A DNA stretch of 63,085 nucleotides, counting the filler, from Collodictyon triciliatum (lineage: Eukaryota): the NCBI GenBank assembly GCA_043381765.1. It is 13 parts of 13 records of this genome, joined end to end, with 100 filler letters (N's around TTAATTAATTAA, not from the genome) between each part and the next. Parts side by side here need not be neighbours in the genome. Positions count along the whole stretch, not along the records: positions 1 to 4,756 come from JBHJMP010005788.1; positions 4,857 to 9,611 come from JBHJMP010005789.1; positions 9,712 to 14,466 come from JBHJMP010005790.1; positions 14,567 to 19,316 come from JBHJMP010005791.1; positions 19,417 to 24,168 come from JBHJMP010005792.1; positions 24,269 to 29,020 come from JBHJMP010005793.1; positions 29,121 to 33,873 come from JBHJMP010005794.1; positions 33,974 to 38,725 come from JBHJMP010005795.1; 5 more parts are not named here. One strand, 5' to 3'. This document shows, in pieces, positions 2,491 to 62,128 of this stretch. A program made the position numbers and the translations under genes. Numbering within the stretch: position 1 is the stretch's first letter; each line of letters starts with the position of its first letter. Under the pieces are notes generated by a model. The model saw only the letters and a list, made by a program, of their open reading frames with translations. It searched no databases and was not told the origin of the DNA.

Positions 2491-4756
2491 AAGAGAAAAC
2501 AGGAGACCTGCGACGGCTGCATTCATTGTCAGAGTCAGCACAAAGCCAGGCTTGCCAGCAACAAACATATACATGTTGTTATTAGTACTTCATTAGTTAA
2601 TTAATGAAAAAGAGGCTCCGTGCCATCGGTGTTTGCCTTTGGGCTTGGGAGGCTGCTTGGACTCGCTTTTCGGTTTGTTTGTTTTGGTTTGCAAAAACAT
2701 TATTATTTTTTTTCGGAAGTGGCGAAGGTCGGTTTAGTGCCAGTAAGGATTTCAATGCGAACAGTCAAAATAGGGAGCAGGACATCGAAGCTGCAAAACA
2801 CAGCCACGAAACGTCAGGCATCCGGCCATGTGGCTTACTTTCCTGGGACTTTGGCGTAATGACGACGCAAAAGATGCTAAGCATGCATGTAGTGGCAAAG
2901 ACAGTAACAACCATGTCTTCCTGACCGTTTTATATATAATGGCCTAATATGATGTTCCAGTTTGCTGTTTCACGAAATCAGCAACAAAGCCGAGCTATTG
3001 AATGCAAGCGAGGTGCAACAGCCCATGTGAGGTTTGATGCAAATAGGCTGAAGAAGATTTCCAGTTGCTTTTCGACGAGTAGTGTTTTCTATCGGCAAAT
3101 GCGAGGTGCGTTCATGTAACAACCGGACACCCAAGTGTGTCCTTGGAATCTCTGATCCGATTCTAAGAACCATCTCGGAATTCTCAAAGTATGTTCTTAG
3201 AATCAGTTCAAAGAACCTCCGTGGAACGCTCCAGGAACCTTCCCAGAAACCTCCCCTGAACCCTTTTTCCAGGGGATATTTAACGAGTCCGTCGACTCGT
3301 CAATAGGTTGGGAATCATAAAACAAGCTTATAACAGAATAAAAGGACATCCCCTTACATTTTGTTATTCTATCTTGAAATTTTTCTTTGGGAAATGCTTC
3401 ACTAAAGGTGCATGTAAGGAAAATGCTGAATTACTTCAGTTTTCTCTCATTATTCGATTCAAAATGCCGAATTACTGTAAACTTTAACCCTGCCATCGTT
3501 ACTTGTACCGTGTAGCTTATTCCATTTGGAAAATCCTAGCATTTCCTCATAGAGTGGCTTTCCTTTCCCCTCAAAAATACTGTGCTTCATAAATCACGTC
3601 TGATTTATCATATCTCATCTTTTTCTACCCACGTCTACATAAAATACGATAAGGTGCTTTGTTTCACTTTACCAATCACATGGAAAACACAAATGCAGGG
3701 GTCTCTGATTGCCTAAAGGATAATAAAAGGTGACCAGCTTCTAGATTGGTAGAAAATCTTGCGGTAGGGATCTGCATTTACGTTATAGAAGCCATTCATT
3801 GGACATTCCGCTGGTAAGAAACAGATTCGCACAATATCAGCTTGTCCTCTTTTTCAATAGTAAAAAAAAGTAATAAATTCGAATACCCATTTTTTCACTA
3901 TGTTTTTTTTGGATTTTTTTTGAAATACCATTTGACTACGAAGCGAAGCTTGTTTCACCACATACATCTCACGCACTCCCTCTGATTTATGAATGAGCAG
4001 CAGTAAATCAACATAATAGTAATGCAAATAGCACCTATGTATTTGAAAGATAAATCTTCATACCTGCACACTGATTTTTTTATCCAACACTGAGACAGGA
4101 TTTTACCCACGAGGTCACATTTAGTGTCTGGCAGACAGTTTCATGTCGAAATGATAAACCAGTAATCATTCATGAAATTACAGTGGTGGATGTATCGGTA
4201 AGAAGGTCATAAGTGAATCGTGCAATTATATTTATTGGTACGGATTCGCAGAAAACCCCTATTTAAATTCAAATTTAATTTTTTATGTACTCTGGGATAG
4301 CAAGGTAAAAGTCTTAAATCACAGACAGGTCAAACTTTATTTGTCTGCATTTTAATTACTCCTATGTCAACATGGGCCAACCCAACTAAACTGAACCACT
4401 TTTTAAGAAAAATACCGTATAATGTTTAACTATTGGGTGTCTCATGGCCATTTCAATAACTCGTTTTTTACTCAAGCACTTTTTTGAAATCCAAATGACT
4501 GATTTTTGAAAACTAGTTATGATTCATCAGCTAGTCATTACTGCATACTCGCTTCTTTTTGTTTAATTCATCACCCACAATGAAGATGTGATTTTACCAT
4601 ATTTCCACAATACATTTTCAATTTCACCAATTTTGGTATTAAAAATTTACTAATATGTTTTTCCAGCTTTATTTTGTCTAATTATTTTGAAATGGTATGT
4701 TTACTGAATTCAATGTTTCATATACAAAGGACAAAAAATAGCCTGTATTTCTGCTT

Positions 4757-4856
4757 NNNNNNNNNNNNNNNNNNNNNNNNNNNNNNNNNNNNNNNNNNNN
4801 TTAATTAATTAANNNNNNNNNNNNNNNNNNNNNNNNNNNNNNNNNNNNNNNNNNNN
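4757..4856. other. Artificial contig linker (N44-TTAATTAATTAA-N44), first of 12
   Basis: The 100-nt spacer carries a six-frame stop cassette. It recurs at 9612, 14467, 19317, 24169, 29021, 33874, 38726, 43578, 48430, 53281 and 58132. Contigs between linkers are 4750-4756 nt (the last is 4854), consistent with size-sorted concatenation. A separate ~100-N scaffold gap starts at 51812. Confidence 0.98.
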
Positions 4857-5004
4857 CCTTTTCCTATTCCTATTCCTATTCCTATTCCTTTTCCTTTTCC
4901 TTTTCCTTTTCCTTTTCCTTTTCCTTTTCCTTTTCCTTTTCCTTTTCCTTTTCCTAATCTTATTACTACTAACTTCATGTGGCGCGGGGGAAATCTTTAA
5001 ACAG

Positions 5005-9440
<4,436 letters not shown>

Positions 9441-9711
9441 GTATTTTTCATTATGCATATTACTTGCGCAATTTGAAGAGTTTTTCCTTATTAAACAATG
9501 ATAAATAATGCGATAATAATAATAACAATAATAACAATAATAACAATAATAACAATAATAACAATAATAACAATAATAACAATAATAACAATAATAACAA
9601 TAATAACAATANNNNNNNNNNNNNNNNNNNNNNNNNNNNNNNNNNNNNNNNNNNNTTAATTAATTAANNNNNNNNNNNNNNNNNNNNNNNNNNNNNNNNN
9701 NNNNNNNNNNN

Positions 9712-9747
9712 TTCAGTCTTACGCTCTTCCAACTGAGCTATTTCGGC
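9712..9747 (-). tRNA. tRNA-Phe(GAA), 5' half, cut by the contig end
   Basis: Reverse complement reads GCCGAAATAGCTCAGTTGGAAGAGCGTAAGACTGAA: acceptor 5' strand, D-arm and the anticodon loop start CT-GAA, typical of eukaryotic tRNA-Phe. Confidence 0.88.
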
Positions 9748-22224: not shown

Positions 22225-23170
22225 TTCCTCCTGTTTTTTTCCTTCCTTTTTTTCGCTTTCACTTTTCCCCTTTTTCTATTTTTCTTCCTTTTTTTTTCTT
22301 CTTTTTTTGCTTCCTCTTTTCTTCCTTTTTTCTTCCTTTTTTTCTTCCTTTTTTTTCTTCCTTTTTTTCTTCCTTTTTTTCTTCCTTTTTCTCTTCCTTT
22401 TTCTCTTCCTTTTTCTCTTCCTTTTTCTCTTCCTTTTTCTCTTCCTTTTTCCCTTCCTTTTTTTGCTTCCTTTTTTCTTCCTTTTTTCTTCCTTTTTTTC
22501 TTCCTTTTTCTCTTCCTTTTTCTCTTCCTTTTTCTCTTCCTTTTTCCTTCTTTTTTTGCTTCCTTTTTTTTCCTTTTTTCTTCCTTTTTTTCTTCCTTTT
22601 TCTCTTCCTTTTTCTCTTCCTTTTTCCATTTTCCTTCTTTTTTTTTCCTTTTTTCTTCCTTTTTTTCTTCCTTTTTTTCTTCCTTCCACTTTTCGTGGCT
22701 TGATCTTCCTTTTTCTCTTCCTTTTTCTCTTCTATTTTTCTTCCTTTTTTTTCTTCCATCTTTTCTTCCTTTTTTCTTCCTTTTTTCTTCCTTTTTTCTT
22801 CCTTTTTTTCTTCCTTTTTCTCTTCCTTTTTCCATTTTCCTTCTTTTTTTTTCCTTTTTTTTTCCATTTTTCTTCCTTTTTTCTTCCTTTTTTTCTTCCT
22901 TCTACTTTTCGTGGCTTGATCTCTGTTTACTCCCAAGGTTGACTCGCCAATGATCTTGTCATCTTCGAAAACTAGCGTGCTAAAAAATTTCTTAAGCTCT
23001 TGGCTTTTCTTTTTCCTTTTCGCTATATCTTTTCCTTTTCTTTTTTCTTTTTCTCTTTTTTCTCTTTTTCTCTTTTCATTTTCATTTTCTCATTTTCATT
23101 TTCATTTTCATTTTCTCATTTTCATATTCTCATTTTCATATTCTCTTTAATTTTTCTTTTCTTTTCTTAT
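22225..23170 (+). repeat. Long polypyrimidine (TTCCTTTTT-like) low-complexity tract with an internal duplication
   Basis: Almost purely C/T. The unique motif ACTTTTCGTGGCTTGATCT occurs twice (about 22688 and 22905). Confidence 0.9.
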
Positions 23171-23625: not shown

Positions 23626-25278
23626 GTAAGAATATATCCACATGATTCGGATGTCCACTATATTATTTAATGGTGATAGTTTTTATAATTGTAATAATAT
23701 CTCCTACAATTCTCTCTGCACGTTATAATTTTATTTGGAATGTATGAACTAACGTCGTCCTTATGCATGTATCTAACATCTTGTTATTTTGTCTCTTAAA
23801 ATAATGTTCTCGGGGAAAACCTATGGACGTTAATCAGAAATTATATCACTTGAGAGAATTTTCTTCGTGCTTCGTAAGAAGTTTCCCTTTTAAGAAGAGT
23901 GATTCCCTTGAAAAGATCACTTCAGAATCACCAGCTGAAAACGCTTGCTTGTTTCACCCTCTGGACATATGCCTATCATTAGTTCAGTTTTTGCCTGTTC
24001 TGAAGCACATATGTAAGGCAGTAACGATATTTTACTTCTTGAAAAAGATATTAACAGTCCCTCGTTTTTTTTTTTTGAATCACCAAATTTCTCATTCATT
24101 TACCCAAGGACCATTAACATATTAATGCTCCCTTAAATTATAAAGGTGCTGATGAAATTCTCGCTGTCNNNNNNNNNNNNNNNNNNNNNNNNNNNNNNNN
24201 NNNNNNNNNNNNTTAATTAATTAANNNNNNNNNNNNNNNNNNNNNNNNNNNNNNNNNNNNNNNNNNNNTGCTCTGATTGAATAAAACATATCCTGTCACT
24301 ATTGTAAGCAAAAAATAAGACAAAATAAATAAAAGTAGCAAATGGATAGAGGACAACCTTGATATGTACCGTTCAAATGAAGCAGCAAGACCAATACACA
24401 ACTAATAATCTTTAAGCATCAAGGGCTTGTGCAACAAAACCAACCTGTTATCTATACATTACCAAAATAGTATTCATAGTCCAATAAGATACTTCAAATG
24501 ATTTATTATTCTGAGAGACTTAAGCATAGTACTTTAGTTTTTTTGGAAAAGGCTTATGAGGAAACAAATTCGTGGGATATCAAAGATAATGAGGAAAGAA
24601 AACTTTGCTTTTGTGAGTATAGATATTGTGATTCCTAATAAAGAAAAAAAGTGGAAAATAAAGATAAAACCGAGACTAATCACGCTGTGGAGCCAATAAA
24701 CTTATACAAAACAAACAACAAAACACTTCGGCGAATAATCAAACAACTGCAGATGCAACAGACAACAGCGCAATCAGTCAGGATATGAATAGCCTTCAAG
24801 TAAGTCGATGAATATAATATAAGACAGAATAAAGGCACACAAAGCGAGTGCATGTATCGTTACAGCCCACCATCATCATGAGCGCAAGAAGAAAGAGAAA
24901 AGATTGTGTCCATGGAGCTGACATTGCGGCACATAACCAAGCGAAAAAATATAATATGAATGAATCAAATAAAAGCAAACACCTCAGTAGCACAATGATA
25001 ACCAACACATAATCATTCTTTTAGCCTGAGACACATACTCAAGGTCGATTATCAAACAAACAGGAAATGTGTCACGTTTATCGGCGACTGCTGGAAAGGT
25101 TAGGTTTTTTTTTTTTATTCTTTTCATCCAGCCTCTGCAAACAAGCTAGCAGTCGTCTGCACTCATTCAGTTTGGCGGTCATCGAGATAGTACTCACTTG
25201 TACTTGTTTTTGTGGAAAAGATGTGTGTATGGGTGGATGAATGGGTTGTTTAGATGGGGTGGGTGACAGACGAGTCAC

Positions 25279-29543: not shown

Positions 29544-29615
29544 TCCGATATGGTGTAGTCGGTAGCACATGTGGCTTTCACCCACACAACCCGGGTTCGA
29601 TTCCCGGTATCGGAA
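29544..29615 (+). tRNA. tRNA-Glu(TTC)
   Basis: Acceptor stem TCCGATA/TATCGGA; anticodon arm TGTGG-CT TTC AC-CCACA; T-arm CCGGG-TTCGATT-CCCGG; followed by a T-run Pol III terminator. Confidence 0.97.
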
Positions 29616-30106
29616 TTTTTATTGCCGTAATCCTCTCTCTCGCACACCGCAGTGTTTGGCAGAACGCGTTTAACTATTCAAGCTTTTTCCTTTATTCGAT
29701 TTTTTTTTTTATTTATTTCGCCGGAGTCACTGATCCGCATTTCAGTTGAAAAAAACCAAAAAACCAAAAAACCAAAAAACCAAAAAACCAAAAAACCAAA
29801 AAGGAAGAAAACAACAAAAGACAATAGACAGTTTGTTCGCCTGTGTTACCCGCCAGCGCCGCATCACTGCTTCGTATTGGAACGCCCCTGCGATGGAGTT
29901 TCATTTGCGTACCCTGAATGTCTACGTTTCGCACGCTGCGTCCGAATCCTTACCGCAGATTATAGCAAGGTGGTTTGCGTCTGTGCATAGTTTTAAGTGA
30001 AGACAAAATTAATACCGATGACCACGAAGCGTTTTATTTGCTCATCAAACACATATATGCATGCTTTTTTTTTTTTTTTTCCTTCTGCAGCTCCGAAAAG
30101 TCAAAG

Positions 30107-33100
30107 ATGCTTCCAAAGCCACCAACCAGCGCAAGGGGAACGGGTTCGACGCCCAGGTTTTTGGCGTTTCTTTCTTTGCATTCGATTCATTTCATATCAT
30201 TTTTTAAATATATTTTCCCCCGTTTATTCGATTCAAAGAATATCAATTTTTTTAAATAAATGTTTCATGTTCTTTTGATGCTTATTTAGGCGACAGCAAA
30301 TCCCGTGGAGGCCGTATTCCTCTCCGCATGTGTCTTCGGGCTCAATTATGGTATCATCCTTCCCCTATTTCCCAAATCACGTTGCTTTCTTTTCTTTTGT
30401 GATCAATTTGCCAAAGCGATGCCCTTGCAATTCCGAAACCAAGCGATAATCACATTTCCAAGGCATTAATAGACACCTTGCGTTTGCCTCTTGTCTTGTA
30501 TTTCTGTCTCTGAAATACCTACAACGCAGATATTCATTCACTGACATTGATACATTCATCGCCGTAAAAGAGTTGCATAATTATTTTCTCAGTCAGCAGA
30601 CAAATTCTCAACAAACGAATTTCAAGCTGCATCAACGAAAACCGCCACCAAGGAATTTGTGAATCCGCCATTCCACCAGAGGCATAAACTGAAGAGTGGG
30701 GAATAGCTTTATCATTCTTTTTATTTTTATTCAGTGGCATTTCTTTTCCGTTCACCCTTTATGTTTCAGACTCCAGTTGCAGTTTTCTTTCCCGCATCTT
30801 TATGATTTTCGACTTATATTTTCTGCATCGACGATCCATTTATCGCAATTGTTTAGAGATAAAGCTGCACAAGAAGAAGGTAAAGCCAATCATGATAGTT
30901 CCTTTGGTATCCACTTCCTTCAGTGTGGAATTACGTCTAACATGTAGCGTTGGTATCATAACATGGCAGACATCCCGGGAGGCTGGTGCTCTTAGTTTAC
31001 CACCTGTTCCAAGTGCCAGAACAACTGACGTAGAATTTGATGGCGATACCCCCAGCATCGAACCGTCCACAAACAGTGTATGATAAAAAAATTATTTTTA
31101 TCTTTAATTCACTCTGCTTCTTCATACTTTTTTGTTCATAGTAATGTTTAATTCCAAAATAATAATAACAATGCTCTCCCATGCTTTTTTTCCCTGTGCT
31201 TTCAAAATCAAATGGTGTCTCGAGAGAATTTTACAATGAGAAAACGTCATTTCCATTCAGTTTACACCTCATTTTCTTCGCTCAAGGGCTTCGTCGATGG
31301 TGAGCTCAAAGTCTTTGCGGGTGAGTTCTTTTCAATTTTTTTTCTTGCGCTACATCTCCACTTCGCATACTCCTTCTGTCCATTTCTTTTTTATTTTTAT
31401 TTTTTTATTATTTAATATCAAAGCTGTTGTTATATCTATATAGCTTGAACGCACCCATCGATCAGAATCTTTCAAGACCATGTCTTCGCTCGCAGAAGAT
31501 GTCACAGAGACCTCTAGTGAGAAAATATTTGAGCAAGGGAAGCACAAGCATGAGGTATATGGTCCTTCTGTCGAGCTCTACTTTATTAATATCGCTTTTT
31601 AACCAAATCAGGCGGAAATATGTCAACGATCTAATTCATATAAATATTAATTGATTTTCAGGATGAACATGACGTTGAGTGTGTAAAGTTCAAGGCGCCA
31701 GAAGTTCCTGTGATATCGACCGAGAATCATGTCAACATCGAAGACATAACTCCGATCCCAACCCAGCGAACCATCAAAGTAGGCCGTATTAGATAACTCA
31801 AAGTTATATGAAGGTGTTAATATTATACATTGGCTATTTCCTTTCAACTTAATAAACACATATTCCTAATATCATACAAAAGCCCCGAAAACCTTACTTG
31901 TACAGTATGGTGACAAGTGAAACGGTTCGTACCCATGTGACACATGAAACAAAACTTAGATAATGTATAAAGATGTTTATATGTTGAGCCAAGGCGAGCA
32001 TCATCTTATTTTATTGACTGGGGGGTTTTATTATTTTTTTTTAAATTATTACTAAAATATACCCAAGTTACAAGATGATTCAGAGTATGACATGGATGAA
32101 TTCTTTCCATCAATCCGAAATGGGCGGGACTACAACCAACAGCTGAATGAAATGGGGCTGGATGCACTTTTCAAATTCCATCGGGCCAAGACGTATGTTC
32201 TATGTTGCCAACATAATTCCTTTCTATTTTTGATCATGTAATTAACGTGTCTAGATGATAATATTAGACTTGAAGTCTAAGTGTATTTAAAATTTTACAT
32301 AGTATATTGCTTTTCTTAACAATTTTTTTTATTTAGTTACAAAAACCTTAATCTTATTCAAATACAACTCTTGGAACATGCATTCAAGGAGGAAAATGCC
32401 CAAGGGCGGATGAACAAGCAACAAGCACGCTATTTCATTTTATGATCTTATAGGGTATTTTCATGAGGCTCAACATCACTTTTTATAACTTGCAGTTCAT
32501 CGATTTGATGAGCAGAGTGGTAGAGGATTCGGATGACATACTTGACGAGCTATTCAGAAAAGTAGATGATGGTGCTCAGGTATCTAAATAATCACACTCA
32601 CCAGCTTTTTTTTTTTTAATGATACTAATAATAATAACCCTTGCATCGATATTTAAAAAAAAAACATCATGCATCAACCTTGTACGTCTATGTAAAAGAT
32701 GAATTTTCAAGTTTTATCATTTTCCACCACCAGCGAATTATAACCTATGAGCAATTTGTATCGTTCATCATGCAAGAATGGGCTTGCACTGAGGATGCTG
32801 TCTTATCATCAATAGTAAACATATACGTACATCCTTTTTTTTCTCCTTCTTCTTCATTTCCCATCGCCTCCATTTTGATATTGAAATGTTGCTCTATTTG
32901 TCCATCCTTCCGTCTGTCAATTTTAAATACGTTGTCCATGTTGAAAACAATTGGTTTATTGCAATATAGAGCTTTTCACCGAGTGTTTCCATGGTCGACC
33001 CGGTTCATAGCCATAGACATATGATAGCACGCCTCAGAATACTCGAGCACCTCTCAGCATATGCAACATGCGGGTTGCCTTACTACCTCAATATTTGTTT

Positions 33101-33721
33101 ATCTCATCTAAATACTTACTTTTATTTTACAATTATTGACAGCTAATTTAATTAAAAAAGAAGTGTATGATACTAGCAGACATATTTTTTCCCCTTTGCC
33201 TTGTCAATTAAATTCATTACAACTCTGCCTTACTCAATATCAAGACGCGATGGAATCATCACCATGTGGGATGCAAACACACTTAAAAGAACACAATCCA
33301 TTTTACCTTTCGAGGATGCATCCCAACGGGAGAAACATATTTGCTATCGCACTGCTTCATCGTATCTTCCTGCACCTAGAAGGTTTTTTTTTCCTTTAAG
33401 AAACCGCACAAGTGTGAGAGTATTCTAGCCATATCTGTGTAATAATACCTGATTATCAGATCTAATATGTATCTCCAGCACCGACTCGCAGCACAGGTTT
33501 TTTCTTCTTCTAATACACGCCGCAATTATTTTTCTTACGATATTTTTGTCCACTTGGATTCGACTTAATACGGTTTCCAAAGCCCACGACAAAGTCTAGC
33601 CAAATATCTATGGTTGAGCAACCAATGAATCGAATTTATGCACAATTGACAAAATGCACTCCGTGGCCCACGGATGTCGCCCATAGTGCGGCTTTGGACC
33701 AAATCATAGTTACCACTCTCG
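30107..33721 (+). CDS. EF-hand plus WD40 protein (WDR49/EFCAB8/WDR64-like), 3' partial
   Basis: A low-complexity N-terminus is followed by an EF-hand-like pair (GRMNKQQFIDLM...ELFRKVDDGAQRIITYEQFVSFIM) and WD-like segments (YATCGRDGIITMWDA, WPTDVAHS). Confidence 0.7.
32425..32495 (+). other. GC-AG intron
   Basis: CAA|GCACGC...TGCAG| joins MNKQQ to FIDLM in frame. No GT donor occurs before the in-frame TGA. Confidence 0.7.
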
Positions 33722-33973: not shown

Positions 33974-36900
33974 CAAAATAATCTTCAAATTCATCGAGCC
34001 GACATAAGGAGTTAGAATGGCAGCTTTGTGCTCAGTCATACAAAAGCCAATTAGGGGGAGAATGTTTGGGTGCTTCAATTTCCTGGAAAAAAGCTTTATT
34101 CATATGGAAAATTCATATATCGAAAAAAAGTCTGAGGAATTGGTTACCTATGAATGAAAATCTCCCTGACTATTTTAGACTTGTCCACTTTGACATAATC
34201 TGCTCTCACGATTTTGGCTGAAATCTCGAAGCCCTACGGAGTTTAGATCTTTCAGAAATAAAAAAAATTGGACATATGTTTGAAAGAATAGAATTATTTG
34301 CCAGGAACTCACCTTGTAATCTGCTATATATACCACACTATGAGCTCCCTTCCCAATAATCTTTCCGGTCAAGCTTATATCTGACCAGGGAATGCTTACA
34401 CGCTGTAACATCTTCTCGTCAATATCTGATGAGTTTCCATCGACAAAACTCTTCTCCGTAGGTGCTAGTATATTTTAGAATCATGTTTTTTAAAATAGCT
34501 TAAGGAAGAGAAAAAAGGGACTATCGGAGTGTAGATTGTATAAATACCAAACATATCGAAATCCTTATTGTCCACCATGTTTGGATGCTGCCATTTTATT
34601 TCCTATTTGTAATCAAAATTACATGCTAATTATCTGAAGTTAAGTTTGAAATAAAATAATAATTAAAAATAACCTTCGTTGAATTTCTTTTGTAGTAATT
34701 TAATATTTTATCATCTTGGTCAGGCAATTGAATTTTATTCGGCAGAGAGGATACATACATCTATAACATTTTAATTATGATAAAAGCATTCAATCATGTC
34801 AACCATCCTGCACAAAATTGAAAGGAAGAATAAAAAAATGATAAAACATTCAATATCCAAATCTGAAATACTCATTTTTCCAAAATTCAAAAGCGAAAAT
34901 AAAAATTATTCAAAATTAGGAGACATGAGATACAGAGACAAAAAGTTGCAAGTAGTTTTTTTTTTTTTAAAAAAAAGAAATGCATGCAAGGTAAAATTGG
35001 AAATAAACTTCATAAACCAAGCTATCTTCATTTATTAACGGTGTTGCTGGTGATATTAATCTTGTTGTTACAAAAATTTGAACCCTACTTTCTCCTACAA
35101 ACTGAATATTAAATCAGTCAAGATGCATCAAAAGTATGTTGATTCGTGATTTTTGAGCTTTGAATAAATAAAAACCTATTTGATTCTGTGAAGAATATTA
35201 TGAAAAGTCATATTATCTGATGATTTAAATACCCGTCAAATTACCTTTAAAAGTTTCCGACCTAGTAGCATTTGACCGTTGCTTGCAAGTACAGATAATT
35301 CCCTCACCCGTTCAATCAACTACATTTATTTATAAACTTTTTTATTTACTTATTTATCTATGTTTTTTTTTTTTACAATATGAAAAAAGCAGAAGGTAAG
35401 AATTAAGGTAAGAATTAATCTATCAACTAAAAAAAGACCTTTCCTTTCGGTACGTATAAGTCACCATCACGTCTAGTAATGCTACACTCTCCAAAGTCGG
35501 CCACCTGGATTAGATATTTAATACGAAATGTGTTGTAGGACACATATATCTTCTATTCGGGATAAGTATTTTCGTTTTACCAGAGAAACACTTAGAGATA
35601 CGGAGGTATTTTTTGGTGGTTCACTTGAAATATTTTCATGTAATCGGTTGTTATGAGGCCAACAAATTTGCTGAAGTTCTACTTGAAGCTGATGGCAAAA
35701 CCTAGAATTATTCATCTTTTTAGAAGCAAAATATTAACTAAGCTTAATACAATATACCAAATAATCGTGAAATATTTTAACCAAATCTGGCTTAACTGTA
35801 AAGAAGAAAGCGGCAAAGGGAACAGCAATAATGATTCGTTCGGCTTTTTTTGAATTTCCGTTCCACCAGCAGATATCAGAACCTAAGCAATTTTTTTCAA
35901 AAATAAAAATCACAACCGAAGCTATGTTTCATAAAAAGTTAATCCCCGTGGTTTATATCGTATTTAAATTTATAAGTTTATCTTTTTTTGGTAACCTTAT
36001 CAAATATATGTCTGAACATAATAATCGCTTCTATTATATCATCGGGATATTCGGACCAAAGCCTTTCGAGTTCATTAATGTGCGCGCACACAATTGTCAT
36101 TGGTTCTTTTCCGCTTTCACTTTCACTTTCACTTTCACTTTCATTTTCACTATTTCCTGAGGCCTAGCGATTATTTGGTAAGTTTTAAAGTAACTATCAT
36201 AACCAAAAATTACATTTTACTTTTCAGGACTTTGCATCTAACAAATATTTTTTAAAAACCTTTTCAGGGACTCTCTCATGTGGTTTGGTAAATTCACGAA
36301 GGTATTCCTATAATATTTAGTAAATATATGTGAGTATGAAGGCTCATTAGAAAAATTTTCCTGATAAAATACTACCGCTAGCTTTTCAACTACAGAGAAT
36401 AAAGGAATTCTTCGTGAAGGTTGAATTTCAAGGAGTGATTTGGTAATGATGCACTCAATATCCAATCCTTGGATTAGATTTGCATCTACTTCATCAGGCA
36501 GTTCATCGTAATTATAAGGTTTGCTTTCCAAAGTCATATTCTTTGTTTGCTTTCCTGTAATAAGTTCCCAGTATATGACTCCGATACTATACAAATCAGA
36601 TTCTACAGTGTATACAGGGAAATCTGTGATTTCGGGCGCCACCCATGTGTTCTTCTTTCCTCTTAAATTTGGCACTAGAAGAAGCTCTATATCTCGGACT
36701 AAATTGCTGAAAAATATGGCGGTCAATATTTTCAAATAAAATAGAAGATAATTTCTTTTCATAATATTAGGAGCATACCCTATCTTTGCAACTTGAAACG
36801 AATTGACCTACGAATTCACTTATGTATTAATGAATTGAATATGAAGAATAAATTCCTGATGATCAAATAGTATATAATAATAATTCCCCTCACATAGATG

Positions 36901-38700
36901 GTATAGCTTGTCAAATTATTGTGTAGTTTTATAGGTTCACAATTATGCAAGTAGTGTAAACCTTAAGATATTCATGAGAAAAGAATACATAAGTTGAAAG
37001 TGTACATGCTGTAATTTATTCAATTCAATTCAATTCAATTATTTTAACCTAGGGATATTTGATGCATGAACTCGAGAGCTATCTTTTTTCAATAATTTCG
37101 TGTAAAGACATGAAGTTGCGTAAGGTTCTATTTTTCATTCACTCATAAAAGAGACAAGGCAATTCTGGGTCGAGACAAACACCCAAATATAGCATCAGAT
37201 TAGGATGCCTGTAATTCCTGGATTTTGTTGATTGAATATTAATATTTGAGAAAAATATTTTTTTGTGTTAATTCTTCAAAACATTGTTGAGGTTGGACAC
37301 GTCAACTCAATATTTTAAAAAAAGAAAATGCCATGTGTAATTACATCAAATATTCGCTTTTTTCCTTCATCGAAGCAGCAAAGTTGTCATTTTTGCATTT
37401 AAATATTAAAATTGTAGCGTTTTGCTGCGGTATTTTACCATCGAACACCTAAATCCTTGGTTTTATTTTGCAGAATTTTAGGCAATACGTTTTAAATTCC
37501 ACAAAACCGCGAATATATACATACCTCATACAATAAATCGTTTCGTATTTGATTGTGAAAGACTATATCATCAGAGCGGATAATAACGAGTCTTTTCTGG
37601 GTCCTGTCAACGTAGGTACGCAGTCGTCCGGTATAAAATCGTACAACTATTATGGCAGCTAATACCGTAGCCCCAACAACACTGCACACAACAAGTACAA
37701 CAATGTCCCTTTGTCCATCAGTTCCTTGCGTTGAAAAAAGAAATCAGGTGTTATATTCCAAAAATAAGTGAATAACAGAGCATACCATCGTTTTTACTCT
37801 GTTCGTCGATGTAAGAGCCACACTCCTATTAGGTCGATATTAGAGAAATTACATGGTCAATAAAGCACCACCTTGCACAAAATCGAAAGGAAGAGTTAAA
37901 AAAACCGAAAAAATCTGACAAAACGACGGGTAAATAAAACATAAATTCTTATAAATACCTTGGTACCAAGGCGACATTTTTCACAAGAGTATGTTGTAAA
38001 ATTGAGTCTGTGTCCGTCCTCGCATACACAACCATGTGAGCGATGAAAGAGTGAATTACTTGGGCAAACTAACAATTTATGGAAAAAAAATAAAGAAATC
38101 AATAAAAAAAAACTCAGATATTACCGAAGTGATATCAGTTTTTTGAAAGGTGAGAGGGTTTAAAATTTTTTATGTTTGATACAATTTTGTCCGAATCGAA
38201 TAAACACTTGAATGATAAAAAAACAAAGCCATATGATCTCTCAGTTCCCACTGCAAGCGTATCAAAAGTGACACTGATGTTACCACTTATTTCTAGTTCA
38301 GTTGTTCCGCAGCCCTCCAACGTGAGAGAGACGCTATTTGTTTTGTAGTTATCAAGAACAGACAATCTAATTGCGTTTCATGGTAAGTAAAATCCAACCG
38401 AGTAATTAATGTATTATCTTGAATAAGGAATTATAGAAATTATTCATCTTAAGAAAATATGGGGAATTACATATTTCCTTTTCCAAAACAGTAGTCAATA
38501 ATAGCTCTGTTCGACTGAAGAACATTTCATGCACAATGCTGTCCATGAAAATAGGGAAATGTACCACTCCCATCGTCAAAGTATTGCAAATTATGATTTC
38601 CTCAGATAACTGTCACATCATTATTTGAACAAAAACCTACATCGATATGCCATAAGTTTCTGCGATATCAAATCTATCTCTAATTGATGATTACTTGGGC
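33974..38700 (-). pseudogene. Single-pass receptor-like TKL kinase with Cys-rich ectodomain and two kinase domains, disrupted, partial
   Basis: CVCEDG...CEKC ectodomain; TM segment IVVLVVCSVVGATVLAAIIVV; degenerate kinase 1 (RHPNLMLYLG, LHNNL, WVAPE, DLYSIG); start of kinase 2 (IIGKGAHSVVY, LKHPNIL). In-frame TGA at 37139-37141 and a frameshift at about 37085. Confidence 0.7.
34795..34837 (+). mobile_element. Ultra-short A-tailed insertion, family A (CCTGCACAAAATTGAAAGGAAGAATAn), with TSD
   Basis: Flanked by ATGATAAAAGCATTCAAT (34777-34794) and ATGATAAAACATTCAAT (34838-34854). Other copies are at 5643-5676, 37866-37904 and 49231-49270 (minus strand). Confidence 0.85.
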
Positions 38701-48529: not shown

Positions 48530-48650
48530 ACAAATCGAAAGCTAAAGCCTTTGTAAATCCAAAGAAATGCTCAATCCAGCTCTGAACCGTCCTGTCACCT
48601 CTAAAGTCGTAAATATCCAAACATCATTCCTTGTAAAAATGGGCGCAGTC
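48530..48650 (+). repeat. 121-bp exact direct repeat at the scaffold start
   Basis: Identical to 53160-53280, the last 121 nt of the same scaffold. Confidence 0.97.
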
Positions 48651-49230: not shown

Positions 49231-49270
49231 CTTTTTTTTTATTCTTCCTTTCAATTTTGTGTAGGACAGT
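49231..49270 (-). mobile_element. Ultra-short insertion, family A, with 15-bp TSD
   Basis: Flanked by ATGAAAACTGCAGAG (49216-49230) and ATGAAAACCGCAGAG (49271-49285). Confidence 0.85.
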
Positions 49271-51752: not shown

Positions 51753-52007
51753 GTAGGCTTTAAAATTGAAATTCTCGATTCTATACCCATACTGTTTTTT
51801 TTTGTTTTGTTNNNNNNNNNNNNNNNNNNNNNNNNNNNNNNNNNNNNNNNNNNNNNNNNNNNNNNNNNNNNNNNNNNNNNNNNNNNNNNNNNNNNNNNNN
51901 NNNNNNNNNNNNGTTTTTGTTTTTGTTTTTGTTTTTGTTTTTTAAAAAAAAGCATATGTAAAATGTTCAACTGAATAATGAATTATTCTCACTATGAAAA
52001 CGAAAAG

Positions 52008-52478: not shown

Positions 52479-53159
52479 TCCATCACTGAATACTTTGTCA
52501 TGTTGCCCTTACGTTTTCTTGGCGGCAGCTGAATGAGAAAGAAGGAAAGAAGAAAAAGAACAGTAGTCCATTTAATCTTGTTTTCAATTTGACTATGTTA
52601 GAAATTAAAGTCATAAAAAGTATCACATTCAAAGCATCCAATGCATCAAGTTTGTATTTGGGGGCCAGTTGGTTAGAATCCGATATAAATATGCATGATA
52701 CTAGTAGAAGCACAATGATCTGTTTACCCCTCCCTTTTTTTTTTTCTTTACTGCTTGAGATGAGATAGCTGTAAATTAACTTGACATTGTCGGTGAGTAC
52801 GGTGAGCAACTGGATTGGTCAACCGGTAGGGTTGGGAAATTGCTGTGTTTTATTCTTAGTTTCTCGGTGACTATTATTCGCTATCATACGCACGATGCCT
52901 TGATTCTTGCGATTCCCCTACCAGTTCTTTGTCTTGGCCATATCCAGTATATTGTCTTTGAATGTTTTCTTTCTTTTCATCATATTCTTGATTCTGACTT
53001 GTGGACTACTGTCTTTCGAGCATCTCATCTCTATCCCCCCATACCACACTATCTACCATTGTGCTTCCCTTGTATCCTGTGTAATCATCGTACCGAATAT
53101 TGTAGACTATACACTTCTTTTTCAGATACTCAGGTTTGCTTGCACGCAAGGCGATAACG

Positions 53160-53280
53160 ACAAATCGAAAGCTAAAGCCTTTGTAAATCCAAAGAAATGC
53201 TCAATCCAGCTCTGAACCGTCCTGTCACCTCTAAAGTCGTAAATATCCAAACATCATTCCTTGTAAAAATGGGCGCAGTC
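53160..53280 (+). repeat. 121-bp exact direct repeat at the scaffold end
   Basis: Identical to 48530-48650. Confidence 0.97.
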
Positions 53281-53754
53281 NNNNNNNNNNNNNNNNNNNN
53301 NNNNNNNNNNNNNNNNNNNNNNNNTTAATTAATTAANNNNNNNNNNNNNNNNNNNNNNNNNNNNNNNNNNNNNNNNNNNNAGCAATATTCAGCGAACGGA
53401 AGAAATGCTGCCAAAAAAAAAAGAAAAAAAGAAAAAAAGAAAAAAAGAAAAAAAGAAAAAAAGAAAAAAAGAAAAAAAGAAAAAAAGAAGAAAAAGAAGA
53501 AAAAGAAGAAAAGAAGAAAAAGAAGAAAAGAAAAGAAGAAAAAGAAAAAAAGAAAAAAAAAGAAAAAAAGAAAAGAAAAAAGAAAAGAAAAGAAAAGAAA
53601 AGAAAAGAAAAGGACAGTTTCACAAACACTATTTGTACAAATCAGACTTGGGACTTTTGGCGGTCATCGCGCACAAACAGCGAAGGAAAGGAAGAGAAAC
53701 GGGACGAACCAAAACAAAGTCTAAAAGAGAAAAGGGACTTTGCAAGAAACAGCG

Positions 53755-55391: not shown

Positions 55392-55747
55392 TTTGCAATC
55401 AAGACTCATCGCATCGAATGAAAACACTTTTTTAGACGAACACAGAAACAAATTAGACAATTTTTATAAAAAAAAAAGCATGGAAATTATTGCTTTTGTT
55501 GTATCTTCTTTAACGGAGCCATTCTTTTGTAACATTTAATAAGTATTGACAATTCCACAGAATGAAATAACGTAATGTATATTAGTAAAAACAGCTGCAT
55601 CGACTAAAGGTATATCGAATTTGGAGGTCATGCTGTTTTTCTACTTCCTTCATTTTGATTGAAGTAGGTGATGCTTTTATATTCCACAGGCCCACTTCGA
55701 CTTTCCTTTCATTTTTTTTGTGTGTAAAATTATGATTTCTGATACAA

Positions 55748-58051: not shown

Positions 58052-58623
58052 CCAGGAAAACCTGGTTAACAAAGAAAAATAACAAAAAATAACAAAATAA
58101 CAAAATAACAAAAAACAAAAACAAAAAAAAANNNNNNNNNNNNNNNNNNNNNNNNNNNNNNNNNNNNNNNNNNNNTTAATTAATTAANNNNNNNNNNNNN
58201 NNNNNNNNNNNNNNNNNNNNNNNNNNNNNNNATTCCCAGGTCTTTGGTGACGCCCGGTGACGCACGCGACAAGCACCCGGCTATTCCCAAGACTTTCGAT
58301 GCAAGAGGTCAACCTTGGCTGTGGCCAACCCCGAACCGGTGAATTTCCAAGGAAGCACAAGCACACAAGTTCTGCACAAGTCGTCTTCTCTGAAAAATCC
58401 GCCGGCCTTTGCGGGATATTTAACCTCGTCTTGTCGAAATCCTTGCTCGTCTTTTCATATTTTCAAAGTACTTTTTGATCTCTGTGTGCACAACCCCACC
58501 ATCCTGACTCGAGTTATTCTGTCCTGTGTGATTGCCAAGTTCACTCATAAAACAAATAAATGATGTGTATTGTATTGACACACAGCTAGTCTACCCATAT
58601 ATACACAGACGGAATCTGTCCAG

Positions 58624-60928
58624 ATGTCCGATCACCTCACACCTGCCCAAGTGGATGCGCTGATGGAAGAAGTCCGGAAACTCTCCAACTATCCTGATAT
58701 TGCCAGTCTGAAACGCTCCACATCTCTGAGTCTCGGTGGCAACAAACTGTCATCTGTGCCACCTGGTGTTTTTCTGTTGACTGGTCTGAAACTATTGGGT
58801 CTTGGTGTCAATAAGCTGTCATCACTACCTGCACAAATATCGTGTTTAACTGGTCTCACATATCTTGATGTATTCTACAATCCGGTATGTTTTTATTCAT
58901 ATATTATTACTATTTATGTTTAAAAGATAATGACTGACAACGATACACGCAGATGGAGGAGCTTCCAGCACAGATCACAGCCCTCACAAATCTGAAAGTA
59001 CTCTACATCGAGGGCGGTGGCAGGGTAAACATAAAGAGAGCCCCGCGTGGCATCTCAAATCTCCCCTGCTGGAATAACACAGGATGCTTAGACTACCAAC
59101 ACATCCGCGCTCTGCAGCTCTACGACCCCGTAAGCACACATCCACCCCAACCCCCACATACACAACACAGGACACAACTAACATAACCCTAGGTCGATAC
59201 CGCAGCTGAAGCTAAAAGAGCTGAAGAAGCTAGAAAAGCTGAAGAAGCTAAAAGAGCTGAAGAAGCTAGAAAAGCTGAAGAAGCTAAAAGAGCTGAAGAA
59301 GCTAGAAAAGCTGAAGAAGCTAGAAAAGCTGAAGAAGCTAAAAGAGCTGAAGAAGCTAGAAAAGCTGAAGAAGCTAAAAGAGCTGAAGAAGCTAGAAAAG
59401 CTGAAGAAGCTAGAAAAGCTGAAGAAGCTAAAAAAGCTGAAGAAGCTAAAAGAGCTGAAGAAGCTAAAAGAGCTGAAGAAGCTAGAAAAGCTGAAGAAGC
59501 TAGAAAAGCTGAAGAAGCTAGAAAAGCTGAAGAAGCTAGAAAAGCTGAAGAAGCTAGAAAAGCTGAAGAAGCTAAAACAGCTGAAGAAGCTAGAAAAGCT
59601 GAAGAAGCTAAAACAGCTGAAGAAGCTAGAAAAGCTGAAGAAGCTAAAAGAGCTGAAGAAGCTAGAAAAGCTGAAGAAGCTAAAACAGCTGAAGAAGCTA
59701 GAAAAGCTGAAGAAGCTAAAAAATCTGAAGAAGCTAAAAGAGCTGAAGAAGCTAAAAGAGCTGAAGAAGCTAAAAGAGCTGAAGAAGCTAAAAGGGCTGA
59801 AGAAGCTAAAAAAGCTGAAGAAGCTAAAAGGGCTGAAGAAGCTAAAAAAGCTGAAGAAGCTAAAAGAGCAGAATCATCGAGTATGTTAATAGACTTACCT
59901 CACATGCAGTTGCCTACTGTTACCTCGGGGTTACATCTCACTATAACCCCACCTTAGCACCCAGCCGCCTGGCCCTCGGCAAATACGCCGATCTGCTGAC
60001 CACAGACTTTGAGAAGCGGGAGAACATCTTGGGCAAGGGCGGCTTCGGGCTGGTCTTCAAGGTGCAACTGAAGGCAGGCCTCTTCGCCGTGAAGCTTGTT
60101 GCGAACGCACAGATGCATGCGATCGTCGACGGCACCGACCCGGAGAAGGAGGGCAACATGATGCTCGAGCTGCAGCACCCAAACATCCTGACGCTCTACG
60201 ACTTTGGCTTCCGCGGCAGAGACCTGCTCTTTGTGATGGAGTTTGCAGACGGCGGAGAGCTCTGCTCACTTATCAAGAAACTAAAAGCACTAGGAAACGA
60301 CACGACCCTCAAGTACGGGCAGCACATCATCCAGGGCCTCGTCTACCTGCACACGCGGCCAAGGCCCATCCAGCACCGCGACCTCAAGACCGAGAACTGG
60401 TCACCGCCCGAGGTTTTTGAAGAAGGCAAGGGTGTGGGGCTGCCCAGCGACGTCTACTCGTACGGCGTGGTCCTCTGGTCCATGCTGAGCGGCGAGTATC
60501 CGTATGAAGGCATGACCATGGGCGAGGTCGGCACAAGAGTCATGAGCGGTAAAATGCTTCCTCTCCCACCAACATGCCCTTCTAACCTTGCAGCTCTTAT
60601 CCACAAGTGCTGGGAGAAAAACTATGAGACTCGCATCACTGCTCAACAGGTCGAGGCCGGGCTCAAGGGCATCATGTCAAACCCCGTTGCTGTCCCGGCC
60701 ACTCCGAGGTCTAGCTCTGTCAAGAAGATGGATACCGAAGAGTTGGTGGTCTACATGAAGGACAATAAGGCCAACCCAAAGCTGATACAGGCCTGCCAAG
60801 AGAATGGCTTAGGCGGGCGTGAGTTCCTTCTGATGACAGAGCCGGACTTGAAGGAGCTTGTTCCAGAGTTCAAGAATCTCCATATCCGAGCCGCTCTTGA
60901 TCTAATCGAGGAGGCCAAGCGCACCTAA
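58624..60928 (+). CDS. LRR - charged repeat helix - TKL (pseudo)kinase - SAM-like protein
   Basis: Four GT-AG exons (58624-58884, 58953-59129, 59193-59880, 59958-60928). They encode LRRs (LSLGGNKLSSVP), AEEA[RK]x repeats, GKGGFG/AVK/HRDLK, and a SAM-like ENGLGGREFLLMTEPDLKEL. Confidence 0.88.
59220..59867 (+). repeat. Coding minisatellite, 36 x 18 bp (GCTGAAGAAGCTA[AG]AA[ACG][AG])
   Basis: 648 nt in perfect period, encoding AEEARK/AEEAKR/AEEAKK/AEEAKT (one unit starts with Ser). Confidence 0.97.
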
Positions 60929-61836
60929 CCACCGCCCCACTCCCTCCTTCATTTCATGGGTTTTGTAGCATTCGCTTGACCCTTTGTTGTCCCCATCCCC
61001 ACACATCTCTATCGCACCCTCAACTGAATAAAGGAAAAACAAAACTATTCTCTGCTCCGCCCCTTTCGTCATCTCGCAAAAGAGAAAAGTAACCGTTTGC
61101 TGGTTTTGTTGCTTGGTTGCGCTGCAGGAAAAAAAAGCAGATTCTTCCGCGAGCCTGTGGTGCATGTAACTGAATTCCGTTTTCACGGGATAGGAAGTCG
61201 TTACATTGGTGTCAATTATACAAAAGTGGATAATAAATTAATAAGATCATATTTAATTATAATAGTTATTTATTATCGATTATATTGATATTTTTGAATA
61301 AATATATATAATTAATTGAATACTTAATGATGATTTTACTTATGGTGCACAGTCATTGAATGTTTCAATTGCAAATGCGACACAGAAACACCTTTGCACA
61401 GACCCAAAATTGTTGCAGTTCAATTGAAAAAAAGTCGGCTTCTCTTATGCGCTAAGAAAATAGTATAGATAGCAAACGACTTGCATAAAATCGCTATAAT
61501 TGCCAAGTTGACAGATTGCCTATATTGGCCTTAGTGCGGTGCATTTTGGGTAATCTTCTTTGAATGGTTCGAAAATCATGACAGAAACCCTCAACCCGAA
61601 TTTGGAATTGACCACATGAACTTTTCGTCCAATTGGTTCATATTCACTGAATTGAAAGTTTTGGCGATTTACTTCTTTTGTCATAGTTCACAGAATTTAT
61701 AATTCAATGAATATATCCAAAATATTCAACTAATTCACATCTGGAATATAAATGTTTTATAATTAAATATCATTACATGTATGATTAATTCAAATGTATG
61801 ATAAAATATGAATATAGATTAATATAAAAAACAAAA

Positions 61837-62128
61837 CTCGCTACACTTTGAATCGAATAAAGGAAAAAAAAATATACAAAACAAAAGATGTGGGAATGTG
61901 TCGTGCGATATCTCCCACAACATATCCAACCCCTGCTGCCCACGCAACCAATCAGCCAGTTGGGACGCCCACCTGACCAACTCGCTATCACTGACTTCTT
62001 TCCAGTGCTACCCTCTCCACGGTAGTCTTCTCCTACTCGCGTTTGCTCTCTCCCATGCGCTCCCATCCCGCCCCTTTGCATGGCATAACCTCACTGCACT
62101 TTGGATCGAATAAAGGAAAAAAAAAAAA
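61837..62128 (+). mobile_element. Two family B copies: a short one with TSD, and a possibly longer C-rich one
   Basis: 61837-61870 is flanked by AATATAAAAAACAAAA and AATATACAAAACAAAA. 62090-62128 repeats the tail with a long A-run, after about 200 nt of C-rich sequence. Confidence 0.75.

What the first reader, a model, noticed from the sequence alone, without database searches (positions are those of the whole stretch)
3420..62128. Family B micro-retroposons (CACTTTGAATCGAATAAAGG-An), down to ~23 nt
Seen: six copies at 3436-3460 (minus, diverged, TSD AAAATGC[TC]GAATTACT), 7341-7363 (+, TSD 15/17 identical), 29684-29701 (minus, no clear TSD), 30211-30239 (minus, TSD ATATCA..TTTTTAAATA), 61837-61870 (+, TSD 15/16 identical) and 62090-62128 (+). 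The tail contains AATAAA shortly before the A-run. The longer copies of A and B both begin with CT[GA]CAC. Inference: a second, possibly related, family of aborted TPRT insertions. Tail plus TSD adds about 40-60 nt per event, a large share of these short introns, so this could be a mechanism of intron lengthening.
Basis: partly seen in the sequence, partly recalled or inferred. Interest (0 to 1): 0.7.

Follow-up and report, generated by a model that had tools for sequence, protein, structure and literature searches.

The report
Tiny LINE-tail retro-insertions, family B
Six short repeats in this protist DNA are front-truncated copies of one L1-like jumping gene, five of them carrying only its last 11-27 bases plus a short A tail: an ordinary copy-and-paste mechanism with unusually tiny products.

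Summary
The 20-mer CACTTTGAATCGAATAAAGG occurs 5 times at up to 3 mismatches, against 0 expected. A sixth, 13-nt copy is at 29684-29701. All six stated coordinates are correct.

The parent is now identified. A metagenome contig (L001) carries the C-terminus of a LINE ORF2 (Pfam zf-RVT, then QLAITDFF), a stop codon, a ~93-nt 3'UTR and exactly this tail plus A10. The sixth copy is not a micro-element. It is a 243-nt fragment (61886-62128), 95% identical to L001, and it keeps the last 46 ORF2 codons.

The other five copies carry 11-27 LINE bases plus 3-9 tail A's. Four of the six have 15-17-bp target-site duplications, far beyond a matched null. The copies lie on both strands. One sits in a verified dynein intron.

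So these are 5'-truncated LINE copies made by target-primed reverse transcription. Why they are so short is inferred, not shown.

Two micro-copies sit directly 5' of an older copy, which is unexplained.

This scan reported the same phenomenon for other LINE families on other pieces of this genome (e1-7200386, e1-7201191).

The parts
3420..3476 (-). c1. The insertion is 3436-3460 (25 nt): 11-14 LINE bases (TTT)GAATCGAATAA plus a diverged purine-rich tail. It is flanked by a 16-nt duplication (3420-3435 / 3461-3476, 15/16 identical). The TTT at the 5' junction is shared by the duplication and the LINE (microhomology).
7324..7380 (+). c2. The insertion is 7341-7363: CTTTGAATCGAATAAAGG (18 LINE bases) plus GGAAA. 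It is flanked by a 17-nt duplication (7324-7340 / 7364-7380, 15/17 identical). It is in sense orientation inside dynein heavy chain intron 7219-7402.
7219..7402 (+). Host intron of c2 (184 nt). The exon ending at 7218 matches Pfam Dynein_heavy profile positions 40-67, and the exon starting at 7403 matches positions 68-114.
29684..29701 (-). c3. 13 LINE bases (AATCGAATAAAGG) plus A5, with no duplication. It abuts an A-run, so its 5' end is ambiguous. It lies 70 nt downstream of tRNA-Glu (29544-29615).
30194..30259 (-). c4. The insertion is 30211-30239: CTTTGAATCGAATAAAcGG (18 LINE bases, 1 mismatch) plus a GGGAAAATA tail. It is flanked by a ~17-19-nt duplication with one indel (30194-30210 / 30240-30259). 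It is antisense in a putative intron, 30157-30289, of an unverified plus-strand gene.
30170..30193 (-). c4b. A probable older, degenerate micro-copy, GAAA-TGAATCGAAT-GCAAAGAAAG (10/10 match to the tail core). It sits directly 3' of c4's duplication and has no duplication of its own.
   Evidence: the chance estimate is my arithmetic
61821..61886 (+). c5. The insertion is 61837-61872: 27 LINE bases plus A9, 36/36 identical to L001. It is flanked by a 16-nt duplication (61821-61836 / 61871-61886, 15/16 identical; the A-tail and the 3' duplication overlap by two ambiguous A's). The 3' duplication ends exactly where c6 begins.
61886..62128 (+). c6. A 243-nt 5'-truncated LINE copy. It holds the last 46 codons of ORF2 (61885-62025, containing QLAITDFF, stop TAG at 62023-62025), a 91-nt 3'UTR (62026-62116) and A12 (62117-62128). 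It has no duplication. It is 95% identical to L001.
61026..61038 (+). Marginal candidate, not counted: GAATAAAGGAAAA in the 3' region of the kinase gene, in the bin where RNA-contig cover of that gene falls away. It is either the gene's own poly(A) signal or a 9-nt micro-copy.
   Evidence: table 2; null 0.05 per window

Best explanation
Family B is not a separate retroposon. It is the 3' end of one L1-like LINE (APE-type endonuclease plus reverse transcriptase plus zf-RVT C-terminus). Its 3'UTR ends ...CTCGCTACACTTTGAATCGAATAAAGG, followed by poly(A). Each copy arose by target-primed reverse transcription: the element's endonuclease nicked an AT-rich site, and the nicked end primed cDNA synthesis from the poly(A) tail of LINE RNA. 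A second nick 15-17 bp away on the other strand produced the target-site duplication. In five of six copies the cDNA was joined to the target after only 11-27 templated bases, leaving insertions of 18-36 nt. Shown here: the parent and its tail, the A-tails, the duplications, the variable 5' ends and the use of both strands. Inferred: why the copies are so short. My preferred reading is an early, abortive phase of TPRT before the enzyme becomes processive. If the chance of stopping per base were constant and high enough to give about 17-nt products, almost no copy would reach the 231 nt of c6 or the length of the longer copies that exist. So two regimes are needed. A recurrent start at base -18 (c2, c4 and three contigs of a DNA metagenome) suggests a preferred stop.
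For: Parent. L001 carries an ORF with zf-RVT at 32.4 bits against a cut-off of 27.5, then a stop, a 3'UTR and the exact tail plus A10. Remote relatives P0011, P0013 and P0014 have Exo_endo_phos, RVT_1 and zf-RVT; P0012 has the first two. c6 is 95% identical to L001 over 243 nt, and c5 is 36/36 identical. Repeat status. Region 61886-62128 is covered by 12-20 contigs in X1 and X2. Its depth in DNA run X4 is 40-179, against 0-7 in the flanks. Loose ends before 61886 continue with L001's upstream sequence. Duplications: 4 of 6 copies score >=9, against 0.9% of null sites. The 15-17 bp length matches the 14-16 bp peak reported for human L1 (PMC2912911, passages read). Both strands are used: 3 plus, 3 minus. 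c2 lies inside a verified intron. The -18 start is seen in c2 and c4, and in 3 X4 contigs whose homology starts at 61846 with unlike upstream flanks (agreement 0.56, table 7).
Against: No reverse transcriptase or endonuclease domain of this family itself was seen. L001 is only 1157 nt, and its ORF2 reading is broken by a frameshift. A search for longer homologues found none. Two of the six copies (c3, c6), and c4b as well, lack duplications. The sites nicked first (bottom strand 3' ends ...TTACT...AATAT...AAATA...TATATT) give no consensus from n=4. Shortness could reflect survival rather than mechanism: the window is gene-dense with short introns, so only tiny insertions may be tolerated. The 3'UTR has no stable structure that would stall the enzyme (z = 0.16). 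The whole genome was not available, so the length distribution rests on six copies plus one contig.
Confidence: 0.8

Rival explanations
1. The enzymatic mechanism is the same, but the shortness comes from selection. TPRT yields the usual broad range of truncated lengths, and in this compact genome only the tiniest insertions survive in introns and short spacers.
For: The window is gene-dense, with introns of about 130-180 nt. The one long copy (c6) lies in an intergenic stretch without RNA-contig cover on its upstream side (table 2). c2 and probably c4 sit in introns.
Against: If 5' ends were spread broadly over a multi-kb element, only a very small share would fall below 30 nt, so very many insertions would have to have been purged. 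The recurrent start at -18 (c2, c4 and 3 X4 contigs) is not expected from selection on length. c1, c3 and c5 are not in verified introns and are still tiny.
Confidence: 0.3
2. The template is already short. LINE RNA is cut near its 3' end, for example by RNA silencing or decay, and the enzyme bound to the poly(A) tail copies the remaining fragment to its end. On this reading the 5' ends mark RNA cleavage sites, not enzyme stops.
For: The 5' end recurs at -18. The copy sizes fall in the small-RNA range. No structure in the 3'UTR explains a stall.
Against: No small-RNA data were seen. The 5' ends also fall at -11/-14, -13 and -27. c1 shows junction microhomology (TTT), which is typical of end-joining on a nascent cDNA.
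Confidence: 0.12
3. A non-autonomous micro-SINE: a short master element of about 18 nt plus tail is transcribed and mobilised in trans by the LINE.
For: c2 and c4 share the same 5' end and an unusual G-rich tail (GGGGAAAATAT; 37-40-nt alignments at 87.5-89% identity).
Against: There is no room for a promoter, and no tRNA-, 7SL- or 5S-like head. The other copies have different 5' ends. c5 and c6 continue into the LINE 3'UTR and ORF2.
Confidence: 0.05
4. A functional cis element, such as a poly(A) signal or regulatory motif, rather than insertions.
For: The tail holds AATAAA. A similar GAATAAAGGAAAA lies in the bin where RNA-contig cover of the kinase gene falls away.
Against: The copies lie on both strands, inside an intron, and antisense in a putative intron. 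They have flanking duplications. They are identical to the end of a LINE that carries ORF2.
Confidence: 0.02

Closest known systems
5'-truncated ('dead-on-arrival') copies of L1-type LINEs made by TPRT, with human L1 as the reference case
   Same: They derive from the 3' end of an element with an EN + RT + zf-RVT type of ORF2. They carry AATAAA and a poly(A) tail and have variable 5' truncation. Their 15-17-bp duplications compare with the 14-16 bp peak reported for human L1 (PMC2912911, passages read). c1 shows occasional junction microhomology, and some copies lack duplications.
   Different: Five of six copies carry only 11-27 templated bases. The review read here calls a 112-bp L1 insertion 'very short' (PMC4859970, passages). 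The survey read here only collected insertions of 50 bp or more (PMC2912911). Tails are only 3-12 A. No TTTT/AA-like nick consensus is visible from n=4.
Extreme single cases in human disease tables, for example the 'shortest Alu insertion' (6 bp of Alu plus A40, SERPINC1)
   Same: A retro-insertion reduced to a few templated bases plus a tail (PMC4859970, Table 1 passage).
   Different: That is a rare curiosity with a 1.4-kb target deletion. Here tiny products with normal duplications are the majority class of a LINE family, and per earlier scan notes of other families in the same genome too.
Ultra-short LINE-tail insertions reported by this scan on other pieces of the same genome (e1-7200386, e1-7201191)
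   Same: The same anatomy: the last 11-35 bases of a LINE, a short tail, and duplications of about 16 bp.
   Different: A different LINE family with a different tail sequence. Here the parent was recovered from an independent metagenome contig, and the pairing of younger with older copies was noticed. Those notes are unchecked AI notes, and I did not see their data.
Introners (transposons that create introns)
   Same: Short mobile insertions found inside introns of a protist (PMC12130899, abstract in the search listing only).
   Different: No splice sites are carried and no new intron is created. c2 lies inside an intron between two exons that abut on the Dynein_heavy profile (positions 67|68), and c4 inside a putative one; they merely lengthen these introns.

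Membership tests
5'-truncated copy of an APE-type (L1-like) non-LTR retrotransposon | The sequence is colinear with the 3' end of an element that encodes a LINE ORF2 | tested here: met
   L001 carries an ORF with zf-RVT (32.4 bits, cut-off 27.5), a stop, a 3'UTR and the exact tail plus A10. c6 is 95% identical over 243 nt and c5 is 36/36 identical.
5'-truncated copy of an APE-type (L1-like) non-LTR retrotransposon | The parent encodes an APE-type endonuclease and a reverse transcriptase | tested here: inconclusive
   L001 is too short to hold these domains. Only remote relatives (25-38% identity) of 1226-1275 aa show Exo_endo_phos + RVT_1, three of the four also zf-RVT. There is no RT domain in the window (0 of 116 ORFs).
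5'-truncated copy of an APE-type (L1-like) non-LTR retrotransposon | A 3' poly(A) tail directly after the element's end | tested here: met
   A5, A9 and A12 in c3, c5 and c6, and A10 in L001. c2 and c4 have GG(G)AAA(A). c1's tail is diverged.
5'-truncated copy of an APE-type (L1-like) non-LTR retrotransposon | Target-site duplications that abut the insertion | tested here: met
   4 of 6 copies score >=9, against 0.9% of 4000 null sites. c3 and c6 have none.
5'-truncated copy of an APE-type (L1-like) non-LTR retrotransposon | A consensus endonuclease nick site at the start of the duplication | tested here: inconclusive
   n=4. Three of the four duplications start with (A)ATAT or TATT. No T-run primer end is present (read from the sequence).
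SINE / non-autonomous retroposon | Its own promoter-bearing head (tRNA-, 7SL- or 5S-derived) and a fixed 5' end | tested here: not met
   The insertions are 18-36 nt, with 5' ends at -11/-14, -13, -18, -18 and -27. ARAGORN found only one tRNA in the window, and it is not part of any copy.
Introner | The insertion itself supplies splice sites and creates a new intron | tested here: not met
   c2 lies in the interior of intron 7219-7402, whose GT and AG are outside the insertion and its duplication.

The most novel reading that the evidence does not exclude
TPRT in this lineage may have a discrete abortive checkpoint. After about 18 templated bases plus the tail, the enzyme either releases the cDNA for joining or switches to processive synthesis, and this leaves a genome-wide layer of 20-40-nt insertions invisible to repeat annotation. 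New insertions may also be drawn to the immediate 5' edge of existing copies of the same LINE: c5 abuts c6, and c4 abuts c4b. That would point to reuse of a nick site, to recombination between insertion intermediates, or to guidance by the element's own RNA.
Probability: 0.2. Interest if true: 0.65.

Novelty: new variant of a known kind. Interest (0 to 1): 0.45.

Why it matters
If tiny tails are the main product of LINE activity in this deep-branching protist, three things follow. Standard repeat annotation, which needs tens of bases, misses most retrotransposition events in compact genomes. LINE activity adds about 40-50 nt per event to short introns and spacers; c2 accounts for 22% of a dynein intron, and c4 with c4b would account for about half of a putative 133-nt intron. 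The sharp length class would also be a natural read-out of the poorly understood step from initiation to elongation in TPRT. As it stands, the mechanism class is ordinary and only the product size is unusual.

Tried and rejected
- **Public collection scans.** The genome-contig scan with the 18-mer plus RR gave 7 of 7 chance matches inside bacterial MAG sequence without A-tails. The viral-contig scan gave 0 hits. Of the 2 metagenome hits, L002 is a chance match in bacterial-looking sequence without an A-tail.
- **Longer relatives.** The search for homologous proteins with 'longer' lengths and the L001 ORF found none.
- **Stall structure.** The RNA fold of the L001 3'UTR gave z = 0.16, with 105 of 200 shuffles folding at least as well. 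No hairpin explains the early stop.
- **Weaker motif matches, rejected as copies.** These are 24956-24975, 38187-38206 and 55591-55610. They have no A-tail directly behind the match, and for 38187-38206, the one tested, no duplication. The 13-mer at 61026-61038 stays marginal. The 6-nt + A9 match at 33384-33398 is not significant.
- **Host gene of c4.** No Pfam family at a credible E-value on its flanking ORFs, so that intron stays putative. The context of c1 was not resolved.
- **Earlier scan notes.** Look-ups by sequence and by place near this window returned nothing.
- **Read laying.** All four runs are contigs, so transcript ends, strand and expression level could not be read. Stretches without cover (61184-61825 in X1 and X2) are no evidence. 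X1 and X2 look like RNA only because of GT..AG joints at 62481>62563 and 62748>62883, among others.
- **c5 + c6 as a single composite event.** I consider this less likely than two events. c6 is 5% diverged from L001, and it carries an A at 62093 where all other contigs in X1 and X2, and 90 of 94.6 depth in X4, read G. c5 is identical to L001.
- **Papers.** My four searches found no paper describing ultra-short LINE tails as a major product class. That is weak evidence of absence, and subscription journals are not covered.
Full report

The 20-mer CACTTTGAATCGAATAAAGG has 5 matches at up to 3 mismatches. They lie at 3447-3466 (-), 7339-7358 (+), 30221-30240 (-), 61844-61863 (+) and 62097-62116 (+). 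None of 100 dinucleotide-preserving shuffles gave any match. The 12-mer core has 8 matches at up to 1 mismatch, against 0.88 expected. Suffix scans add the sixth copy at 29684-29701 on the minus strand, 13 bases plus A5.

Three weaker matches have no A-tail directly behind the match, and for 38187-38206, the one tested, no duplication. I reject them. They are at 24956-24975, 38187-38206 and 55591-55610.

**2. Are the flanking repeats more than chance?**

For each copy I scored the best ungapped match between the sequence abutting the 5' end of the LINE-like part and the 45 nt after AAAGG. I did the same for random pseudo-insertions of 12-27 nt.

| Null set | Sites | score >=9 | >=11 | >=13 |
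|---|---|---|---|---|
| Outside tandem repeats | 4000 | 0.9% | 0.18% | 0.03% |
| All sites, microsatellites included | 5112 | 5.4% | 4.5% | 3.6% |

The real scores for c1 to c6 are 13, 11, 5, 9, 13 and 6. So 4 of 6 copies have a 15-17-nt duplication, and c4's has one indel. c3 and c6 have none. A first, looser control gave the same picture.

**3. What is the parent?**

- The window holds no reverse transcriptase: 0 of 116 ORFs of 90 aa or more hit RVT families.
- No whole genome is held for this window.
- One exact-pattern scan of metagenome contigs gave two loci. L002 is a chance match in bacterial-looking sequence without an A-tail.
- L001 (1157 nt) is the parent's 3' end. It has an open frame of 202 aa that hits Pfam zf-RVT, the zinc-binding C-terminal domain of LINE reverse transcriptases, at 32.4 bits against a cut-off of 27.5.
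- After one frameshift, a 133-aa continuation ends ...PPDQLAITDFFPVLASPR. Then come a stop, a 3'UTR of about 93 nt, the tail CTCGCTACACTTTGAATCGAATAAAGG, and A10.
- An exhaustive HMMER search with the 202-aa ORF found 14 proteins at E <= 0.001. Among them are short fragments of the same family that end in QTAITDFF or QSVITNFF.
- It also found four remote relatives of 1226-1275 aa. Three carry Exo_endo_phos + RVT_1 + zf-RVT and one lacks zf-RVT. That is the L1-type ORF2 layout.
- The RT and EN domains of family B itself were not seen.

**4. Anatomy of the six copies against L001.**

| Copy | Insertion (strand) | LINE-derived bases | Tail | Duplication |
|---|---|---|---|---|
| c1 | 3436-3460 (-) | 11-14 | diverged, purine-rich | 16 nt, 15/16 |
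| c2 | 7341-7363 (+) | 18 | GGAAA | 17 nt, 15/17 |
| c3 | 29684-29701 (-) | 13 | A5 | none |
| c4 | 30211-30239 (-) | 18 (1 mismatch) | GGGAAAATA | ~17-19 nt, one indel |
| c5 | 61837-61872 (+) | 27 | A9 | 16 nt, 15/16 |
| c6 | 61886-62128 (+) | 231 | A12 | none |

- c6 is a 243-nt copy, 95% identical to L001. It holds the last 46 ORF2 codons (containing QLAITDFF, stop at 62023-62025), a 91-nt 3'UTR and A12. It is therefore not a micro-element.
- c5 is 36/36 identical to L001.
- In c1, a TTT is shared between the duplication and the LINE at the 5' junction.
- c2 and c4 also share a G-rich tail, GGGGAAAATAT.

**5. Independent support from public runs (all four runs are contigs).**

- The stretch 61886-62128 is covered by 12-20 contigs per variant position in X1 and X2.
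- In DNA run X4 its depth is 40-179, against 0-7 in the flanks. It is therefore a multi-copy repeat.
- Contigs that reach 61886 continue upstream with ...CTACTCTGACCGCAAGCGAAGAG, which is L001's sequence. So longer copies exist and appear in what look like transcriptomes. X1 and X2 show GT..AG joints downstream and no cover over 61184-61825. The RNA label is the tool's guess.
- Three X4 contigs start their homology at 61846, the C of CTTTG, and their upstream flanks are unlike each other (agreement 0.56). That is the same -18 start as c2 and c4.

**6. Context.**

- c2 lies in sense orientation in a verified intron. The exon ending at 7218 matches Dynein_heavy profile positions 40-67, and the exon starting at 7403 matches positions 68-114. 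The intron is 7219-7402 (184 nt), and the insertion plus its duplicate adds about 40 nt (22%).
- c4 and c4b lie antisense in a GT..AG-bounded stretch, 30157-30289 (133 nt), of a gene I could not verify.
- c3 is 70 nt downstream of the window's only tRNA gene, tRNA-Glu.
- c5 and c6 are intergenic.
- The context of c1 is unresolved.

**7. Mechanism.**

Shown: a LINE parent, A-tails, 15-17-bp duplications in 4 of 6 copies, and variable 5' ends. This is the signature of target-primed reverse transcription with 5' truncation. The duplication length matches the 14-16 bp peak reported for human L1 (PMC2912911, passages read).

Inferred: why the products are so short.
- A constant stop probability that yields about 17-nt products would almost never reach 231 nt or the longer copies. 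So I favour a two-phase process: an abortive start, then processive synthesis. The apparent preferred stop at -18 fits this.
- The 3'UTR has no stable fold that would stall the enzyme (z = 0.16).
- Rival readings are selective survival of tiny copies in a compact genome, and a pre-shortened RNA template. Neither can be excluded without the genome or raw reads.

**8. An unexplained pattern.**

Twice, a younger micro-copy with good duplications sits directly 5' of another copy. That other copy has the same orientation, looks older, and has no duplication of its own.
- c5's 3' duplication ends at the first base of c6.
- c4's 3' duplication is followed within 4 nt by TGAATCGAAT-GCAAAGAAAG (c4b).

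With 7 copies in 63 kb, I calculate about 0.03 pairs expected within 50 nt. This is my arithmetic, not a tool result. c6 is 5% diverged, and it carries an A at 62093 where the other contigs in X1 and X2 all read G. That favours two successive events. Possible causes are reuse of a nick site, recombination of insertion intermediates (compare PMC13526784; abstract and one passage read), or guidance by the element's RNA. None was tested.

**9. Comparison and novelty.**

The kind, truncated LINE copies, is textbook. In the papers I read, a 112-bp L1 insertion is called very short, and the shortest Alu insertion (6 bp plus A40) is a curiosity (PMC4859970, passages). Surveys set a 50-bp floor (PMC2912911).

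Four searches found no description of ultra-short tails as a major product class. The library lacks most subscription journals, so this is weak evidence.

This scan noted the same phenomenon for other LINE families on other pieces of this genome (e1-7200386, e1-7201191), and a PIP-like ORF2 end (e1-7246953, e1-7201261). I saw such a motif independently in L001, c6, P0004 and P0009. I did not test it.

**10. Verdict.**

Family B is a new LINE family's truncated tails: a known mechanism with an unusual size class of product. Interest is moderate.

Noticed in passing
window 5643-5676 (+), 34795-34837 (+), 49234-49266 (-): Three copies of a second tail family ('family A', ...CATCCTGCACAAAATTGAAAGGAAGAATAAAAAA), two of them with clear flanking duplications. 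The pattern is 0-mismatch in 3 places, and 5 matches at <=3 mismatches compare with 0.57 expected. One copy sits inside a (TTA)n microsatellite.
   Followed up: partly
window 61821-62128 and 30170-30259: In two places a younger micro-copy with duplications lies directly 5' of an older copy of the same LINE tail. The older copy has the same orientation and lacks duplications. The cause is unexplained.
   Followed up: partly
window 61885-62025; L001 208-606 (-); P0004, P0009: The LINE ORF2 ends in a PCNA-box-like motif shortly before the stop: QLAITDFF in c6 and L001, QTAITDFF in P0004, QSVITNFF in P0009. This agrees with earlier scan notes on other LINE families of this genome.
   Followed up: partly
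window 61024-61038: RNA-contig cover of the LRR-kinase gene (stop at 60926-60928) falls away in the bin that holds CTGAATAAAGGAAAAA. AATAAAGG may therefore be this organism's usual poly(A) signal context, with cleavage only a few bases downstream, or a 9-nt micro-copy may supply the signal.
   Followed up: partly
window 29544-29615: The only tRNA gene in the window, tRNA-Glu (TTC), lies 70 nt upstream of micro-copy c3. It is followed by an (AAAAAACC)n repeat at about 29750-29800.
   Followed up: no
window 48530-48650 and 53160-53280: A 121-nt stretch is repeated at 100% identity, and each copy directly abuts one of the regularly spaced N blocks (pairs of 44-N runs roughly every 4850 nt). This looks like an artefact of masking or of how the window was put together rather than biology.
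   Followed up: no
window 59208-59873; 22230-22900; 53410-53615: There are long low-complexity or tandem coding-like repeats. One is an 18-nt period array upstream of the kinase domain. Purine-rich arrays are shared among several places in the window.
   Followed up: no
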